A stretch of DNA of 64,000 bases from Flavobacteriaceae bacterium (GTDB taxonomy: Bacteria; Bacteroidota; Bacteroidia; Flavobacteriales; Flavobacteriaceae), in the NCBI GenBank assembly GCA_038153605.1, contig JAYOYS010000001.1, positions 57,527 to 121,526 of the forward strand, in the 5' to 3' direction. Each line of letters starts with the position of its first letter. Position 1 is the first letter of the stretch. The position numbers were made by a program, and so were the translations under genes. This document shows, in pieces, positions 27,589 to 37,322 of this stretch. The notes beneath the pieces are model-generated. The model was not told the origin of the DNA, ran no database searches, and saw only the letters and a list, made by a program, of their open reading frames with translations.

Positions 27589-28590
27589 TCAGTATCTTCT
27601 GCTATAGGATAAGGAAACGTAAAGATGAGGTTCTGCTGAGCGATTACGTGCTGATTCGTAATGGTACTTAAGATAGACATCGTTGCGCTTGTAACGCCAA
27701 AAAAAGCCTACATTAAAAAAGTACATCATCCGGTAAGGCCTTACCGTATAAATCGAATTATCTCCTAGCCAATTTCCCTGGAGCATAGCGTCCTGCACTA
27801 CGTATCGATAACCAAATCGCGTAGAGAAAAACAATTCTGTTTCGCGCCCAAGTAACTGGCCATAGGCCATAGTCTTTTGTAAAGATGATCGGCGACCAAA
27901 ATAAAATACGGCATCTTGTTCTAAATAGGTGTCCTTGGTTCCAAGGGCCGCTTTCGGATTAAGTGCAAAATATACCGCAAATGGTTTTGGCTGCCATTGC
28001 CATTCCCGGACATACTCATAATAAGCGTTGAAATGGAAGCTATTGTCAATTTGTGAAAGCCAAGTCGCAATTTTTGAATCAACAGTCGCAGAGTTGTGGA
28101 ACGCGCTCTGAACGGTCTCAGAACCCGACCATGGCCCGGCGATACCAAATACGAAATTATAGCGATTCACGTGAAAGCCCTGAGTAACCGTCAGGACGTT
28201 ATTTAGGCCAATAAACCCAGCATAGGGGCGATCGAGAAACTTTATTTTATCGGTCAGTAAGTCGGTTGGCGTAAAGATTTCTTGATAAAGCACCAGACTG
28301 TATTGACGGGTTTGTTTTTGTGCTAACTGATTTGGGGTCAAAGGTAGCCATCGATGTAGTCCTAAAAAACTTCCTGTAGAATAGTAGCGATCTGTGAAAT
28401 GTAAAAAATCATTGTCTTGGCGCAGTTCGAATTGATCAAAGTACTCTGGGGACCACTCTTTGGAATCCCCTGTTGACTCCTCTGGAGTTTGCATTCGGGA
28501 TGGACCGTTGGGGTCTATTGTCGATTGTCCATGGGCCACAAGAGGTAGTACTAGGAACAATAGCAATATGTAACACTTGTTTTTGATCAT
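27589..28590 (-). CDS. LpxR-like (DUF2219) outer-membrane beta-barrel protein
   Basis: Signal peptide from the ATG at 28590. QDNDFLHFTDRYYSTGSF matches my memory of the N-terminal NDxF..TDRxYTxG motif of the lipid A 3'-O-deacylase family. Alternating beta-strand pattern with an aromatic C-terminus. Confidence 0.5.
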   Translation of the reverse strand: MIKNKCYILLLFLVLPLVAHGQSTIDPNGPSRMQTPEESTGDSKEWSPEYFDQFELRQDNDFLHFTDRYYSTGSFLGLHRWLPLTPNQLAQKQTRQYSLVLYQEIFTPTDLLTDKIKFLDRPYAGFIGLNNVLTVTQGFHVNRYNFVFGIAGPWSGSETVQSAFHNSATVDSKIATWLSQIDNSFHFNAYYEYVREWQWQPKPFAVYFALNPKAALGTKDTYLEQDAVFYFGRRSSLQKTMAYGQLLGRETELFFSTRFGYRYVVQDAMLQGNWLGDNSIYTVRPYRMMYFFNVGFFWRYKRNDVYLKYHYESARNRSAEPHLYVSLSYSRRY

Positions 28591-28597
28591 TTTTTGG

Positions 28598-30121
28598 TCA
28601 GATCTTGGACTTGGCAAAAATACTTTTTATAAAGAGATAACCGAAACCCAAGATACAGAGCAGATGAAATGGGGCTAAACCATAATCCCCCTTAGGGCCC
28701 ATGTTTGCAGCTAGCCATAAACCACCGAACGCATAAATCATCAAGAATAATTCTAGAGCTGCAGGGAAAAATTGTCCGCTCGATGAGTAATAAGCCATGG
28801 TTGGTGTGCCCGGCCCTTTGTCTGTGGTCTGTTTGGACTCTGAACTTGCCCTAGGATTGAATTTTGGTGTTCTCACAAAAGGAGTAATGACTCCAAGGTG
28901 TGCCTGGATTACCGCGATGGCATTATTTGCGGACAGTCCAATGGCTAAGGTGAAAAACACCACGAAGTCATAAAATGCGCGTCCCCACGAAAGTTTACGC
29001 TCTGTGTTGATCATTTTGTAAGCCCCGGTATAGGCCCAAACGAGTAATAGAGTCGTGAGCCCAAAGGCTTGAAACAAATAAAATATCCAAGTCCATTGGG
29101 GGTGACTGTTTTTGATCCAAAGTAGGGGTATACTCAGGAGAATAAGCAGGAGTACTATAAAAAATAAGGAACTGCTAAATAGATGTGCCGTGCCAAATAT
29201 TTTTTCTTTTAGGTTTAGCTGCTCACTGCCCCAAAGAGTGCGCCAGAGCTGTCTAAAATTTTGAGCACCACCTTTATTCCATCTGAATTGTTGACTCCGC
29301 GCCGCCTGAACGGTTTGAGGAAGTTCGGCTGGGGTGATGATTTCAGGACGATAAACAATTTTCCATCCCTTGAGTTGGGCGCGGTAACTCAGATCCAAAT
29401 CTTCAGTTAAGGTTGTGCCAGACCAATTGCCGGCATCCAGGATACAGGATTTACGCCAAATACCAGCAGTACCATTGAAATTCATGAAAACACCACTGGC
29501 TTGACGACCCATTTGTTCCAAGCTGAAGTGCAAATCTAAGGCAAAGGCTTGAACTCTGGTTAAAATAGATTCTTTGCGATTAATATGACCCCAACGAGTT
29601 TGAACAACCCCAATATCTTTCTGGTTGAAGTAAGGCATACTGCGTAAAAGCCAATCCTCTTGGGGCAGGAAATCAGCATCGAAAATAGCTATAAATTCAC
29701 CTGTCGCTTGCTTGAGTCCCTCCTTTAAAGCACCTGCTTTGAACCCTTCTCTATTGGTTCTGTGTAAATGATTAATAGGAATACCCTGAGTCCTAAGAGA
29801 GGCCACCAATGATTTAATGATTTTGGTAGTGTCATCAGTGGAATCGTCTAAAACCTGAATTTCTAATCGATCTCGGGGATATTCAATTGCGGCAACATGC
29901 TTGAGCAGTGAATTAATCACATTTTGTTCGTTGTAAACCGGGAGCTGAATCGTTACTTTTGGTAAATCGTCTTTTAAATTGTAGGGGGTAAGCTGATTTT
30001 CTTTAGTTTGATTTCTGGAATCTAAAAACTTATGAAAAAGGAGGACCTGTGTTATGGCAAAAAGCAATAGGGTCAGAAGGCAAACGGCATAAATCAGGAC
30101 AATAAGCAGCTCCAAAATCAT
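28598..30121 (-). CDS. membrane-embedded processive GT2 synthase (cellulose/chitin/hyaluronan-synthase-like)
   Basis: N-terminal TM segment, DDSTDDT, FDADF, TEDLDLS (TED) and QQFRWNKG (QxxRW) motifs, then about 4-5 C-terminal TM segments. Confidence 0.85.
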   Translation of the reverse strand: MILELLIVLIYAVCLLTLLLFAITQVLLFHKFLDSRNQTKENQLTPYNLKDDLPKVTIQLPVYNEQNVINSLLKHVAAIEYPRDRLEIQVLDDSTDDTTKIIKSLVASLRTQGIPINHLHRTNREGFKAGALKEGLKQATGEFIAIFDADFLPQEDWLLRSMPYFNQKDIGVVQTRWGHINRKESILTRVQAFALDLHFSLEQMGRQASGVFMNFNGTAGIWRKSCILDAGNWSGTTLTEDLDLSYRAQLKGWKIVYRPEIITPAELPQTVQAARSQQFRWNKGGAQNFRQLWRTLWGSEQLNLKEKIFGTAHLFSSSLFFIVLLLILLSIPLLWIKNSHPQWTWIFYLFQAFGLTTLLLVWAYTGAYKMINTERKLSWGRAFYDFVVFFTLAIGLSANNAIAVIQAHLGVITPFVRTPKFNPRASSESKQTTDKGPGTPTMAYYSSSGQFFPAALELFLMIYAFGGLWLAANMGPKGDYGLAPFHLLCILGFGYLFIKSIFAKSKI

Positions 30122-30828
30122 TTGAAAAAGGCGTGTTTGGCAATCCAGCCAATTATTTTCACTCCAGCAAATATAACACCTTTTACAGTCCCCGAAACTT
30201 TGGAAACACCGATGCGATTTCTATAAGGGACCTTTATTTCGGTGTAATTCAAATTCATTTTCAGGGCTTTGAGTTGCATTTCAATAGTCCAACCATAAGT
30301 CATATCCGACATATTCATAGACATTAGTTTGTCGTAGCGAATTGCCCTAAATGGCCCCAAATCTGTATAACGCGCCCCAAATAATTGGCGCATTAACCAA
30401 GTTGCGAGACCATTGCCAAAGCGTTGGGGTAGCGTCATAGCCCCAGGGGCCATTAGTTCCTTATCGCGTGCCCCGATGACTAGATCCATATTTTGGCTTT
30501 GGATTGGGCCAATAAGCGCATTGAGATACTCGGGAAAATCACTGTAGTCTCCATCGAGAAATACAATAATTTCAGGTGTCTGTTCTGGATTCTCGAAGGC
30601 CCTTCTTTGAATGTACTCAAGGGCATGCATACAGGCATAACCATAGCCTCGGCGCGATTCTTCCAATACTAAAGCCCCGTGATTTTTAGCCACAATTATT
30701 GTATTGTCCTTTGAGCCATTGTCTACCACAATAACCTGGGAAGCTGTCTTTGGTATATCATCCAGGACAAGACCAATAGCTTCAGCCTCATTAATGGCTG
30801 GAATGATTACCGTAATTTTTGTAAGCAA
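30118..30828 (-). CDS. soluble GT2 glycosyltransferase (Dpm1/ArnC-like polyprenyl-phosphate sugar synthase type)
   Basis: VIIPAINE..., VVDNGSKDNT and FLDGDYSD motifs, no TM segment. 4-nt overlap with the downstream synthase. Confidence 0.82.
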   Translation of the reverse strand: MLTKITVIIPAINEAEAIGLVLDDIPKTASQVIVVDNGSKDNTIIVAKNHGALVLEESRRGYGYACMHALEYIQRRAFENPEQTPEIIVFLDGDYSDFPEYLNALIGPIQSQNMDLVIGARDKELMAPGAMTLPQRFGNGLATWLMRQLFGARYTDLGPFRAIRYDKLMSMNMSDMTYGWTIEMQLKALKMNLNYTEIKVPYRNRIGVSKVSGTVKGVIFAGVKIIGWIAKHAFFK

Positions 30829-36794: not shown

Positions 36795-36800
36795 ACCGAT

Positions 36801-37130
36801 TTATGAATCCAATTTATTGACTTTATTCATCATCATCACTCCGTGAACCAAACTAGCGCCACTTTTTATGGCCGCGCCTACATGTACTGCTTCCATCATT
36901 TCTTCTTTGGTGATACCGCGTTCCAGGCCATCTTTGGTATAAGCATCGATACAATAGGGACACATTTCGGTATGGGCTACCGCCAGGGCGATCAATGATT
37001 TTTCTCTTTGAGTAAGGGCTCCCTCTTTAAATACACTATTGTAATAATCAAAGAATTTTTCTCCTAGAGTCTCGCTCCATTCGGTAATGCGACCGAATTT
37101 GCGCAGGTCTTTTGGGTCGTAATAAGACAT
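36801..37130 (-). CDS. AhpD/carboxymuconolactone-decarboxylase-like peroxidase-like protein of ArsS clusters
   Basis: HTEMCPYCIDAY CxxC motif. About 110 aa from the ATG at 37130 (the track start at 37160 is a TTG). Confidence 0.78.
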   Translation of the reverse strand: MSYYDPKDLRKFGRITEWSETLGEKFFDYYNSVFKEGALTQREKSLIALAVAHTEMCPYCIDAYTKDGLERGITKEEMMEAVHVGAAIKSGASLVHGVMMMNKVNKLDS

Positions 37131-37322
37131 GTTTATAAATTTTAAAATCGAATCTTCCAAGATTCAGGATTCTAAAGATACAATTTCATCCTAAAGACTT
37201 GGGTTAAAAACACGCGCATTTAACGCCCTTTTAACCTAGGGTTCTTACCGACGATCAGTGCAACGATGTCTTGCAATTCTGGCGACAGACCAGTCCGAAC
37301 TTTACCTATTCGCAGCTTATGC

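What the first reader, a model, noticed from the sequence alone, without database searches (positions are those of the whole stretch)
27589..37180. Thirteen-gene single-strand array embeds an ArsS/ArsM arsenosugar-type core in an envelope glycosyltransferase module
Seen:
- From 37130 down to 27589 every gene is on the minus strand. Neighbours are separated by -4 to +33 nt, with 4-nt start/stop overlaps at 35727-35730, 34585-34588, 33758-33761 and 30118-30121. This reads as one transcription unit.
- The gene order is: AhpD-like CxxC protein, radical SAM/Cys-rich protein (CNQVCAHC plus C-terminal CYGCTAGAGSSC), secreted rhodanese, DUF2064, trimeric PNP, ArsM-like methyltransferase, DUF547, GT-A glycosyltransferase, CC-motif membrane protein, Dpm1-like GT2, processive membrane GT2, LpxR-like barrel.

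Established:
- ArsM produces dimethylarsenite.
- The radical SAM enzyme ArsS attaches a 5'-deoxyadenosyl group to it, giving the first committed arsenosugar intermediate (genetics in Synechocystis PCC 6803, plus in vitro work).
- To my knowledge, the enzymes for adenine removal, sugar activation or transfer and any lipidation are not established.

Inference:
- This array offers co-transcribed candidates for each missing step.
- It sits in a heterotrophic Bacteroidota rather than an alga or cyanobacterium.
- No arsR, arsB/acr3 or arsC is visible in the window, so it is not organised as a resistance operon.
Basis: partly seen in the sequence, partly recalled or inferred. Interest (0 to 1): 0.85.

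Follow-up and report, generated by a model that had tools for sequence, protein, structure and literature searches.

The report
Arsenosugar operon fused to envelope glycosyltransferases
An uncultured marine flavobacterium carries the already-catalogued arsenic-sugar (ArsS/ArsM) gene set joined head-to-tail to cell-envelope sugar-transfer genes; this pairing recurs across its family and gives testable candidates for the unknown late steps of arsenosugar synthesis.

Summary
The array is real, but it has 12 minus-strand genes (27589-37130), not 13. Junctions run from -20 to +33 nt.

**Core (first eight genes).** Seven of the eight pass NCBIfam curated cut-offs:
- TIGR04169 AhpD-like
- TIGR04167 ArsS
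- NF045521 rhodanese
- TIGR04282
- PNP
- NF038099 "arsenosugar ArsM"
- TIGR04283

DUF547 is the eighth gene. This core is an already curated "arsenosugar biosynthesis" neighbourhood. PGAP already names it in many Flavobacteriaceae, so a heterotrophic Bacteroidota host is not new.

**Last four genes.** These are a MerT-like CC protein, a Dpm1-like GT2, a BcsA-like GT2 and an LpxR-like protein. They belong to a separate Flavobacteriaceae envelope module. Its GT-C partner sits at 23789-25201.
- In most relatives this module lies next to the ArsS cluster but is split from it by opposite-strand genes.
- Seen from the module, linkage is strong: 27 of 31 GT2s-GT2L metagenomic loci carry cluster genes upstream. 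The best-conserved gene family downstream is present in only 10 of 28.
- The linkage survives many rearrangements.
- No such link was seen in the non-Flavobacteriaceae Bacteroidota loci.

**Verdict.** This is a known kind in a new fused variant. I put functional coupling of the two modules at about 50%. The pathway order ArsM, ArsS, PNP, CofC-like TIGR04282, GT2 TIGR04283 is inference, not shown.

The parts
37131..37322 (-). 192-nt intergenic leader upstream of the first gene; probable promoter region (inferred)
   Evidence: It is the only gap longer than 33 nt on this strand between 27589 and 38972. It holds a near-match, TAtcTTTa, to the Bacteroidota -7 motif about 45 nt before the ATG. No Rfam family matches here.
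36801..37130 (-). AhpD/CMD-like CxxC protein, TIGR04169
   Evidence: TIGR04169 scores 183 bits against a cut-off of 120. Present next to ArsS in 77 of 80 loci. C67 and C70 are invariant in 72 sequences.
35727..36794 (-). Radical SAM enzyme ArsS (TIGR04167; Radical_SAM + DUF3641)
   Evidence: 433 bits against a cut-off of 300. Pfam Radical_SAM and DUF3641 match. The CX3CX2C cysteines C68/C72/C75 and five C-terminal cysteines are conserved in 81 sequences.
35230..35730 (-). Exported single-domain rhodanese (NF045521 'rhoda_near_glyco')
   Evidence: 169 bits against a cut-off of 145. The N-terminus looks like a signal peptide. C113 is invariant. Present in 41 of 80 ArsS loci.
34585..35196 (-). 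TIGR04282 / DUF2064, a CofC-like nucleotidyl/NDP-sugar transferase fold
   Evidence: 205 bits against a cut-off of 134, plus a weak CofC hit. Matches PDB 3cgx at E 2e-27. Present in 66 of 80 ArsS loci.
33758..34588 (-). Trimeric-type purine nucleoside phosphorylase
   Evidence: NF006054 scores 333 bits against a cut-off of 218. Matches PDB PNPs. Present in 47 of 80 ArsS loci, usually between TIGR04282 and ArsM.
32793..33761 (-). Arsenosugar-type As(III) S-adenosylmethionine methyltransferase ArsM
   Evidence: NF038099 scores 564 bits against a cut-off of 400. The cysteines aligned to CmArsM C72/C174/C224 are present and invariant in 43 sequences.
32027..32812 (-). Exported DUF547 protein with an invariant C-x4-C motif (NCASKSCP)
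   Evidence: Pfam DUF547 scores 96 bits. C170 and C175 are invariant in 36 sequences. Present in 34 of 80 ArsS loci and upstream of 23 of 31 GT2s-GT2L loci.
31275..32006 (-). TIGR04283 GT2 (GT-A) glycosyltransferase; the ORF can extend to 32021
   Evidence: 232 bits against a cut-off of 182. Follows DUF547 directly in every relative locus where both are called.
30838..31251 (-). 137-aa three-helix membrane protein with a vicinal Cys pair; a distant MerT-like protein ('CCm')
   Evidence: Three hydrophobic segments. C24, C25 and C85 are invariant. All 29 family members tested hit MerTP and 16 hit MerT, all below cut-off. 603 homologs were found; all named ones but one are Flavobacteriaceae or Bacteroidota MAGs, largely from marine samples.
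30118..30828 (-). Short soluble GT2 (AglJ / Dpm1 / GpgS-like), 'GT2s'
   Evidence: Pfam Glycos_transf_2 matches. AglJ (E 1e-30) and dolichyl-P hexose transferase hits are below cut-off. Matches PDB MpgS/GpgS. Always directly precedes GT2L.
28598..30121 (-). Membrane-embedded processive-type GT2 (BcsA/PgaC-like), 'GT2L'
   Evidence: DAD, TED and QQFRW motifs and 1+5 hydrophobic segments. Matches PDB BcsA at E 5e-19. PGAP names homologs 'cellulose synthase family protein'.
27589..28590 (-). LpxR-family outer-membrane protein
   Evidence: Pfam LpxR scores 138 bits against a cut-off of 26. It follows GT2L in the window lineage (L089, L090, L173) and also in L098, L104, L106 and L107. Found in 0 of 80 ArsS-centred loci.
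23789..25201 (-). GT-C (MptA/B-family) glycosyltransferase, the displaced third member of the envelope module
   Evidence: Pfam MptA_B_family, precomputed. 36% identical (E 4e-77) to the GT-C that directly follows GT2L in Polaribacter. GT-C follows GT2L in most loci.

Best explanation
The array is two modules fused into one probable transcription unit.

**Module 1 (36801-37130 down to 31275-32006).** This is a member of the curated ArsS-type arsenosugar cluster. The proposed route is:
1. ArsM makes dimethylarsenite. This step is established for the family.
2. ArsS adds the 5'-deoxyadenosyl group, giving 5'-deoxy-5'-dimethylarsinoyl-adenosine. This is established for the Synechocystis enzyme.
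3. The clustered PNP removes adenine by phosphorolysis, giving the alpha-ribose-1-phosphate derivative (inferred).
4. The CofC-like TIGR04282 protein couples it to a nucleotide (inferred).
5. The inverting GT2 TIGR04283 transfers it to an acceptor as a beta-riboside (inferred).

The AhpD-like CxxC protein, the exported rhodanese and the exported DUF547 would handle thiol or redox steps (inferred).

**Module 2 (CCm, GT2s, GT2L, LpxR-like, plus GT-C at 23789-25201).** This is a Flavobacteriaceae envelope glycan or glycolipid machine. Its evolutionary linkage to TIGR04282, DUF547 and TIGR04283 suggests it builds the acceptor for the arsenosugar, or further processes or exports it (inferred).

**Sub-claim confidence**
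- Core identity: 0.9.
- Pathway order: about 0.5.
- Functional coupling of the two modules: about 0.5.
For: **Family membership**
- Seven curated NCBIfam models are passed.
- Radical-SAM and As-binding cysteines are conserved.
- The ArsS reaction is documented (PMC13598754; PMC12159101). arsM-arsS co-transcription in Synechocystis is documented (bioRxiv 10.1101/2022.09.23.509062).

**Core synteny in 80 species-level loci**
- AhpD 77, TIGR04282 66, PNP 47, ArsM 42, rhodanese 41, DUF547 34, TIGR04283 28.
- TIGR04282 matches PDB 3cgx (NDP-sugar transferase fold) and, weakly, CofC.

**Coupling of the two modules**
- Of 31 metagenomic GT2s-GT2L loci with at least 9 kb upstream, 27 carry cluster genes. 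DUF547 is in 23 and TIGR04283 in 18.
- The commonest downstream neighbour is in only 10 of 28.
- At least eight different arrangements keep the two sets together. Examples:
  - AhpD-ArsS-TIGR04282-PNP-CCm-GT2s-GT2L-GT-C (L094)
  - GT-C-rhodanese-TIGR04282 (L164)
- Bona fide TIGR04282 and NF045521 genes sit with the GT module even where ArsS is absent.
- A MerT-like thiol protein is wedged between the two modules.
- Linkage is spread over the whole GT2L tree.
- PiT phosphate (arsenate-type) transporters occur inside relatives' clusters.
Against: - No expression or chemistry data exist for any Flavobacteriaceae cluster. No paper in the searchable library links them to arsenosugars.
- In most relatives the GT module lies behind the opposite-strand genes c17 and GH113, so it is a separate transcription unit.
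- Polaribacter butkevichii has the module with no ArsS gene within 10 kb. L091/L092 lack ArsS, AhpD, PNP and ArsM nearby.
- ArsS clusters in the non-Flavobacteriaceae Bacteroidota loci (Cytophagales, Chitinophagales and Sphingobacteriales by record title) carry no such module.
- Module 2 reads coherently as a mannan-type pathway with no need for arsenic: Dpm1-like GT2, MptA/B-like GT-C, GH113 mannanase family, BcsA-like synthase.
- Some regional synteny is simply inherited: MVD, GHMP kinase and UbiA downstream of GT-C.
- The PNP residue at human Asn243 is Asp. The same is true of the best-matching PDB PNPs, so this gives no cluster-specific evidence.
Confidence: 0.5

Rival explanations
1. Neighbours only. 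The first eight genes are the arsenosugar-type cluster. The last four (with GT-C) are an unrelated envelope mannan-like glycan or glycolipid module. It sits next door through inherited Flavobacteriaceae gene order, and in this lineage it became contiguous after loss of the intervening genes (c17, GH113, c10, c11).
For: - Opposite-strand genes separate the two sets in most relatives.
- The module occurs without ArsS nearby.
- There is no link in the non-Flavobacteriaceae loci.
- The module's parts make sense on their own: Dpm1-like, MptA/B-like, GH113, BcsA-like.
- Inherited synteny is visible on the far side too: MVD, GHMP kinase and UbiA.
- The window lacks c8-c11 and c17 altogether.
Against: - Upstream linkage (DUF547 23 of 31, TIGR04283 18 of 31) is well above the best downstream neighbour (10 of 28).
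- Linkage persists through at least eight arrangements and across the GT2L tree at about 50% identity.
- TIGR04282, DUF547 and the NF045521 rhodanese stay with the module when ArsS is gone.
- The Cys-rich MerT-like gene overlaps or abuts GT2s.
Confidence: 0.33
2. Not arsenic in these heterotrophs. The ArsS-like enzyme adenosylates another soft nucleophile, such as a methylated selenium or sulfur species. The cluster then makes a 5'-deoxyribosyl conjugate other than an arsenosugar.
For: - 38 of 80 ArsS loci have no ArsM within 10 kb.
- The family and its rhodanese and AhpD partners have selenoprotein forms (names; PMC13188914).
- A sulfurtransferase-type rhodanese is conserved.
- No ars resistance genes are in the window.
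Against: - The window has a full-length arsenosugar-type ArsM (564 bits against a cut-off of 400) with As(III)-binding cysteines.
- ArsS scores as an equivalog of the characterised enzyme family.
- PiT-type transporters lie in relatives' clusters.
Confidence: 0.08
3. A detoxification unit. Its purpose is methylation and disposal of arsenic, as in an ars operon, and the glycosyltransferases are irrelevant passengers.
For: ArsM alone confers arsenite tolerance in other systems (bioRxiv 10.1101/2022.09.23.509062).
Against: - No ArsR, ArsB/Acr3 or ArsC in the window.
- arsS mutants are not arsenic-sensitive in Synechocystis.
- The most conserved partners are AhpD-like, TIGR04282 and PNP, not efflux genes.
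Confidence: 0.05

Closest known systems
Synechocystis sp. PCC 6803 arsM-arsS arsenosugar pathway (Xue et al. 2017/2019; Cheng et al. 2021, as cited)
   Same: Adjacent, same-strand ArsM and radical SAM ArsS. ArsS has CX3CX2C plus a Cys-rich C-terminal domain. Predicted product of the first two steps is 5'-deoxy-5'-dimethylarsinoyl-adenosine.
   Different: The host is a heterotrophic flavobacterium. Here the pair is embedded among ten further genes. No product has been measured. Only the first two steps have experimental support anywhere.
NCBIfam-curated 'arsenosugar biosynthesis' neighbourhood (TIGR04167, TIGR04169, TIGR04282, TIGR04283, NF038099, NF045521)
   Same: All six models are passed above cut-off by consecutive genes. 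PGAP already uses the same names in many Flavobacteriaceae.
   Different: The curated set does not include PNP, DUF547, the MerT-like protein or the GT2s-GT2L-GT-C module. The roles of TIGR04282 and TIGR04283 are named by association only (TIGR04282 is a 'hypoth_equivalog').
Polyprenyl-phosphate-sugar / GT-C envelope pathways (mycobacterial Ppm1 with MptA/MptB lipomannan synthesis); from established knowledge
   Same: A Dpm1-like GT2 sits next to an MptA/B-family GT-C. This is the logic of a cytoplasmic lipid-linked donor used on the outer face of the membrane.
   Different: All hits are below the curated cut-offs. GT2s has no membrane segment. A BcsA-like synthase and, in relatives, a GH113 enzyme are added. 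The sugar is unknown.
BcsA-type processive synthases with a partner glycanase (bacterial cellulose synthase operons)
   Same: GT2L has the D, D, D, QxxRW signature and flanking membrane helices, and matches BcsA. Relatives carry a glycoside hydrolase (GH113) beside it.
   Different: No BcsB, PilZ or c-di-GMP parts. CelA and PgaC cut-offs are not met. The polymer is unknown.
MerT/MerF mercury transporters
   Same: About 120-140 aa, three helices, a vicinal Cys pair in helix 1 and a further Cys in the helix 2-3 loop. MerTP, MerT or MerF are the most consistent hits of the family.
   Different: All scores are far below curated cut-offs. No MerP, MerA or MerR. The genomic partner is a glycosyltransferase pair.
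CofC/FbiD guanylyltransferase of F420 biosynthesis
   Same: TIGR04282 shares the fold and gives weak CofC hits. CofC activates a phospho-monoester with GTP, which is the chemistry proposed here for the ribose-1-phosphate derivative.
   Different: The CofC cut-off is not met (33 bits against 105). No F420 genes are nearby. The substrate is untested.

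Membership tests
ArsS (TIGR04167 arsenosugar radical SAM enzyme) | Score above the curated equivalog cut-off over the full length | tested here: met
   433.1 bits against a cut-off of 300; model positions 2-303 of 303
ArsS (TIGR04167 arsenosugar radical SAM enzyme) | CX3CX2C cluster motif and Cys-rich C-terminal DUF3641 domain | tested here: met
   CNQVCAHC and CYGCTAGAGSSC are present. DUF3641 scores 176 bits. The cysteines are conserved in 81 sequences.
ArsS (TIGR04167 arsenosugar radical SAM enzyme) | Adenosylation of dimethylarsenite | not testable with these tools
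   Needs an enzyme assay
Arsenosugar-type ArsM (NF038099) | Score above the curated cut-off | tested here: met
   564.2 bits against a cut-off of 400; positions 1-321 of 321
Arsenosugar-type ArsM (NF038099) | As(III)-binding cysteines equivalent to CmArsM C72, C174, C224 | tested here: met
   Aligned to PDB 4kw7. C48, C143 and C195 are invariant in 43 sequences.
Curated arsenosugar neighbourhood | TIGR04169, TIGR04282 and TIGR04283 encoded beside ArsS | tested here: met
   183 vs 120, 205 vs 134 and 232 vs 182 bits, on consecutive genes
Curated arsenosugar neighbourhood | Production of dimethylarsinoyl-ribosides | not testable with these tools
   Needs HPLC-ICP-MS/ESI-MS of a cultured carrier
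Single operon (one transcript for all 12 genes) | No internal terminator or promoter; transcript spanning every junction | tested here: inconclusive
   Gaps of -20 to +33 nt are compatible with one transcript. The consensus scans were uninformative. There are no RNA data. In relatives the unit is split after TIGR04283.
ars resistance operon | ArsR, ArsB/Acr3 and ArsC present | tested here: not met
   None among the window ORFs scanned with Pfam or NCBIfam. Four very large ORFs were not scanned with these libraries; one of them has precomputed FG-GAP/ASPIC hits.
Purine nucleoside phosphorylase (NF006054) | Score above the cut-off | tested here: met
   332.6 bits against a cut-off of 218
Purine nucleoside phosphorylase (NF006054) | Active-site change specific to cluster copies that would indicate a 5'-arsinoyl-adenosine substrate | tested here: inconclusive
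   Asp replaces human Asn243, but the three best-matching PDB PNPs (4lna, 8swt, 4m1e) have the same Asp
MerT mercury transporter | Score above the curated cut-off | tested here: not met
   Window protein: MerTP 19 bits against a cut-off of 180, MerT 15 against 150; best E-value of any family member against MerTP 1.7e-7
MerT mercury transporter | Three helices, a vicinal Cys pair in helix 1 and Cys in the cytoplasmic loop | tested here: met
Processive BcsA/PgaC-type GT2 | D, D, D, QxxRW motifs with flanking membrane helices | tested here: met
   DAD148, TED239 and QQFRW277; 1+5 hydrophobic segments; BcsA hits
Processive BcsA/PgaC-type GT2 | CelA or PgaC equivalog cut-off | tested here: not met
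   PgaC 130 bits against 422; CelA 112 against 699
Dpm1 / polyprenyl-phosphate glycosyltransferase | Equivalog-level match | tested here: inconclusive
   AglJ 107 bits against 325; dolichyl-P hexose transferase 66 against 375; no membrane helix
LpxR lipid A deacylase | Pfam gathering score | tested here: met
   138.3 bits against a cut-off of 26
LpxR lipid A deacylase | Catalytic residues and deacylase activity | not tested
   No residue-level comparison was made

The most novel reading that the evidence does not exclude
In marine Flavobacteriaceae the ArsS pathway does not end in a small soluble arsenosugar. The activated 5-deoxy-5-dimethylarsinoyl-ribose is passed to the Dpm1-like / GT-C / BcsA-like module and ends up in an envelope glycan or glycolipid. 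The MerT-like protein (or, in other lineages, the FAD-oxidoreductase plus NapH-like pair that replaces it) moves arsenic or reducing power across the membrane for the exported rhodanese and DUF547. Abundant heterotrophic bacteria would then be an unrecognised source of marine arsenosugars or arsenolipids.
Probability: 0.2. Interest if true: 0.85.

Novelty: new variant of a known kind. Interest (0 to 1): 0.55.

Why it matters
Only two steps of arsenosugar synthesis have experimental support: ArsM and ArsS. The enzymes that remove adenine, activate the sugar and attach it are unknown, although arsenosugars and arsenolipids dominate arsenic in seafood.

- **Ordered candidates.** This cluster type places a PNP, a CofC-like transferase and an inverting GT2 directly beside ArsS in cultivable Flavobacteriaceae. 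That gives an ordered candidate list which can be tested stereochemically.
- **What is already public.** The naming of TIGR04282 and TIGR04283 is already in public annotation.
- **What this analysis adds.**
  - PNP and DUF547 are stable members of the neighbourhood.
  - The neighbourhood is evolutionarily tied to an envelope glycosyltransferase module and to a MerT-like thiol protein.
- **Consequence if the tie is functional.** Heterotrophic marine bacteria, not only algae and cyanobacteria, would contribute to organoarsenic cycling.

Tried and rejected
- **PNP specificity residue.** The position of human Asn243 is Asp in the window PNP. The three best-matching PDB PNPs (4lna, 8swt, 4m1e) have the same Asp, so this is not evidence for a special substrate.
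- **DUF547 structure.** An AlphaFold2 single-sequence model gave pLDDT 35 and was unusable, so no fold search was run. DUF547 has no PDB relative by sequence.
- **Promoter and terminator scan.** Sigma-70 and terminator scans found no more sites than shuffles. They do not model Bacteroidota promoters. A TAnnTTTG search found only intragenic matches at background density.
- **Rfam.** No riboswitch in the leader; only two tRNAs elsewhere in the window.
- **Polaribacter 158-aa ORF.** It occupies the CCm position but shows no similarity to CCm and has no family hit.
- **Failed look-ups.** Two exact-protein look-ups of flanking window genes found nothing, probably because of start-codon differences.
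- **Organism name.** It could not be obtained. The same array occurs in unnamed ENA/Logan contigs, and at 76-91% identity in a "Flavobacteriaceae bacterium" MAG.
- **Literature.** No accessible paper covers the late steps, TIGR04282/TIGR04283 function, or Flavobacteria and arsenosugars. Xue et al. 2019 (PMC6467767) is not held.
- **Rejected reading: ars resistance operon.** No ArsR, ArsB/Acr3 or ArsC was found.
- **Rejected reading: split at 32021/32027.** That junction is conserved in relatives.

Full report
**Observation**

Between 27589 and 37160 every ORF of 80 aa or more that is not nested in a longer one lies on the minus strand. With the start codons used by public gene callers on identical metagenomic contigs there are twelve genes, not thirteen.

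The junctions are 6, -4, 33, -4, -4, -20, 20, 23, 9, -4 and 7 nt. A 192-nt gap precedes the first gene. A convergent M28-PDZ peptidase gene ends 5 nt after the last.

The layout is compatible with one transcript, but nothing here can prove it:
- The sigma-70 and terminator scans found no more sites than shuffled sequence and do not model Bacteroidota promoters.
- Rfam found nothing in the leader.

**What the genes are**

Seven consecutive-array proteins pass NCBIfam curated cut-offs:

| Gene | Model | Bits | Cut-off |
|---|---|---|---|
| AhpD-like | TIGR04169 | 183 | 120 |
| ArsS | TIGR04167 | 433 | 300 |
| Rhodanese | NF045521 "rhoda_near_glyco" | 169 | 145 |
| TIGR04282 | TIGR04282 | 205 | 134 |
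| PNP | NF006054 | 333 | 218 |
| ArsM | NF038099 "arsenosugar biosynthesis ArsM" | 564 | 400 |
| TIGR04283 | TIGR04283 | 232 | 182 |

The remaining five genes:
- DUF547 passes Pfam.
- The 137-aa CC protein has no curated family.
- The next GT2 resembles AglJ, Dpm1 and GpgS, but below cut-offs.
- The 507-aa GT2 is BcsA/PgaC-like. It has DAD, TED and QQFRW motifs and 1+5 hydrophobic segments.
- The last gene passes Pfam LpxR.

Supporting residue-level checks:
- The ArsM cysteines aligned to CmArsM C72, C174 and C224 are present.
- The functional cysteines of ArsS, ArsM, AhpD-like, rhodanese and DUF547 are invariant or nearly so across relatives.
- No ArsR, ArsB/Acr3 or ArsC was found among the window ORFs scanned.

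**How known the core is**

The same result shows that the core is already a curated, named system. Homologs of about 70% identity are annotated by PGAP as "arsenosugar biosynthesis radical SAM (seleno)protein ArsS" in Winogradskyella, Psychroserpens, Tenacibaculum, Tamlana and many other genera.

The 80 best loci are all Bacteroidota by their record titles. A heterotrophic Bacteroidota host is therefore the rule for this family in public genomes, not a surprise.

Experimentally, only two points are established in what I could read:
- ArsM supplies dimethylarsenite.
- ArsS adenosylates it to 5'-deoxy-5'-dimethylarsinoyl-adenosine.

I found no paper on the later steps, on TIGR04282 or TIGR04283 function, or on arsenosugars in Flavobacteria. 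The NCBIfam names for TIGR04282 and TIGR04283 rest on association.

**Neighbourhood of ArsS**

In the 80 species-level loci, the partner genes within 10 kb occur as follows:

| Partner | Loci of 80 |
|---|---|
| AhpD-like | 77 |
| TIGR04282 | 66 |
| PNP | 47 |
| ArsM | 42 |
| Rhodanese | 41 |
| DUF547 | 34 |
| TIGR04283 | 28 |
| Short GT2 (GT2s) | 9 |
| Long GT2 (GT2L) | 6 |
| CC protein | 2 |
| LpxR-like | 0 |

- The usual Flavobacteriaceae order is AhpD, ArsS, rhodanese, TIGR04282, PNP, ArsM, (a fatty-acid-hydroxylase-family gene), DUF547, TIGR04283.
- Two opposite-strand genes usually follow: a metallophosphoesterase and a GH113 glycosidase.
- Then come a FAD oxidoreductase (c10), a NapH-like membrane ferredoxin (c11), GT2s and GT2L.
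- The non-Flavobacteriaceae loci (Cytophagales, Chitinophagales and Sphingobacteriales by record title) keep only AhpD, ArsS and TIGR04282 with TIGR04283 and/or ArsM.
The variable junction lies after TIGR04283.

**The envelope module**

- Homologs of the long GT2 ("cellulose synthase family protein") occur at about 50% identity across many Flavobacteriaceae genera.
- In Polaribacter butkevichii the order is GH113 (opposite strand), c10, c11, a 158-aa ORF, GT2s, GT2L, then an MptA/B-family GT-C. No ArsS gene lies within 10 kb.
- The window's own GT-C at 23789-25201 is the homolog of that gene (36% identity, E 4e-77). Here the LpxR-like gene, an opposite-strand peptidase gene and a TolB-like gene separate it from GT2L.
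- The module is therefore GT2s, GT2L and GT-C with variable extras. It is a unit in its own right.

**Reciprocal test**

I scanned metagenome contigs with a GT2L alignment and scored all cluster families.

- Of 34 loci with at least 9 kb upstream, 27 carry at least one arsenosugar-cluster family. Of the 31 that also have GT2s, 27 do.
- As a control for inherited gene order, I compared the two flanks:

| Flank | Family | Loci |
|---|---|---|
| Upstream | c10 and c11 | 28 of 31 |
| Upstream | DUF547 | 23 of 31 |
| Upstream | GH113 | 20 of 31 |
| Upstream | TIGR04283 | 18 of 31 |
| Upstream | ArsM / PNP / TIGR04282 (cut by the 10-kb horizon) | 13 / 12 / 11 of 31 |
| Downstream | Commonest family | 10 of 28 |

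- The two gene sets stay together through at least eight arrangements. Examples:
  - AhpD-ArsS-TIGR04282-PNP-CCm-GT2s-GT2L-GT-C (L094)
  - TIGR04282-DUF547-CCm-GT2s-GT2L-GT-C with no ArsS, AhpD, PNP or ArsM nearby, in a very abundant Tara Oceans genome (L091/L092)
  - TIGR04282-DUF547-c10-c11-GT2s-GT2L-GT-C (L154)
  - GT-C followed by rhodanese and TIGR04282 (L164, L168)
- The TIGR04282 and rhodanese genes in these ArsS-less loci are bona fide family members (183-207 bits against 134; 194 against 145).
- Linked loci are spread over the whole GT2L tree.

This is more than background synteny. It is confined to Flavobacteriaceae, and some inherited order does exist on the other flank: MVD, GHMP kinase and UbiA.

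**The CC protein**

- It has three hydrophobic segments.
- It has an invariant Cys-Cys in the first segment and an invariant Cys in the loop before the third.
- All 29 family members tested hit the MerTP model (best E 1.7e-7), 16 hit MerT and 7 hit MerF. All are far below cut-offs. Pfam MerT is hit by 20 of 29.
- I call it MerT-like, not a MerT.
- Upstream of GT2s it is mutually exclusive with the c10/c11 pair: 8 loci against 43, none with both.
- CCm-type loci are scattered in the GT2L tree, so one has replaced the other more than once.

**Most likely mechanism**

1. ArsM produces dimethylarsenite. Established for the family; membership shown here.
2. ArsS gives 5'-deoxy-5'-dimethylarsinoyl-adenosine. 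Established for the family; membership shown here.
3. The clustered PNP phosphorolyses it to adenine and the alpha-ribose-1-phosphate derivative. Inferred.
4. The CofC-like TIGR04282 (PDB 3cgx fold) makes an NDP-sugar. Inferred.
5. The inverting GT2 TIGR04283 forms the beta-riboside found in natural arsenosugars. Inferred.

The AhpD-like CxxC protein, the exported rhodanese and the exported DUF547 (C-x4-C) are assigned thiol or redox roles. Inferred.

The envelope module either makes the acceptor or further handles the product. I rate that coupling at about 0.5. The main rival (0.33) is that it is an unrelated mannan-like envelope pathway kept next door by ancestry. The Dpm1-like, MptA/B-like, GH113 and BcsA-like parts fit that reading.

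**Novelty and interest**

- The core is a new member of a known, curated kind.
- The fused architecture appears undescribed in the literature I could search. It combines a MerT-like protein, a family-wide tie to a GT2s-GT2L-GT-C module, and PNP and DUF547 as stable members. Overall I rate it a new variant of a known kind.
- It makes the open question of the late arsenosugar steps testable in cultivable relatives. Much of that candidate list is already implicit in public annotation, so interest is moderate (0.55) rather than the 0.85 first proposed.

Noticed in passing
window 30838-31251; loci L012, L041, L089-L092, L094, L108, L110, L112, L131, L155, L173 vs 43 other loci: Directly upstream of the short GT2, the MerT-like CC protein and the pair c10 (CoA-disulfide-reductase/NirB-like FAD oxidoreductase) + c11 (NapH/MauN-like membrane ferredoxin) never co-occur: 8 loci against 43, 0 with both. 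CCm-type loci are scattered in the GT2L tree. This suggests repeated functional replacement.
   Followed up: partly
L091:8634-13937 and L092 (Tara Oceans and other marine assemblies): A very abundant marine flavobacterial genome (its CC protein is indexed in 912 collection blocks) keeps TIGR04282-DUF547-CCm-GT2s-GT2L-GT-C right after the trp operon. No ArsS, AhpD, PNP or ArsM lies within 10 kb. It is unexplained what TIGR04282 and DUF547 do there without ArsS.
   Followed up: partly
L009:18602-19486 and 17 other ArsS loci; L087:6598-7500: A fatty-acid-hydroxylase-family membrane enzyme sits between ArsM (or PNP) and DUF547 in 18 of 80 ArsS loci. It is absent from the whole window. This hints at a lipid substrate in relatives.
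   Followed up: no
L026:5210-6205; also L015, L063, L085: A PHO4/PiT-family phosphate transporter lies next to ArsM inside some ArsS clusters. It is a plausible arsenate entry route.
   Followed up: no
L008, L018, L024, L036, L052 (about 11.9-19 kb in each): In five genera a SusC/SusD pair, an SSS-like transporter and a metallophosphoesterase are inserted after ArsS-TIGR04282. A second TIGR04282 copy follows.
   Followed up: no
L098, L104, L106, L107 (about 1.5 kb after the GT2L start in each) and window 27589-28590: An LpxR-family gene follows the long GT2 in a second group of loci as well as in the window's own lineage. It may therefore be an optional part of the envelope module rather than a chance neighbour.
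   Followed up: partly
window 15361-18379: Mevalonate diphosphate decarboxylase, a GHMP kinase and a UbiA prenyltransferase lie downstream of GT-C. The same MVD and GHMP kinase genes, preceded by a pseudouridine synthase gene, follow GT-C in L091 and L094; UbiA is also present in L094. This could be inherited synteny or a polyprenyl-phosphate link.
   Followed up: no
window 42422-53784: A PAP2/vanadium-haloperoxidase-like gene is followed by three tandem genes of about 1110 aa. The first has FG-GAP/ASPIC hits; the other two were not scanned. A SusD/SusC pair lies at 53927-58610.
   Followed up: no
window 37323-41288 and 59074-63895: Two sugar-use gene sets flank the region. One has an SSS transporter, a PfkB kinase and a GPH/sucrose-type MFS. 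The other has a LacI regulator, GH32, a sugar transporter and a PfkB kinase, which looks like a fructan or sucrose locus.
   Followed up: no
window 19666-22952: Ornithine/arginine decarboxylase, an arginase-fold enzyme and a deoxyhypusine-synthase-like gene lie in a row, which looks like a polyamine (homospermidine-type) set.
   Followed up: no
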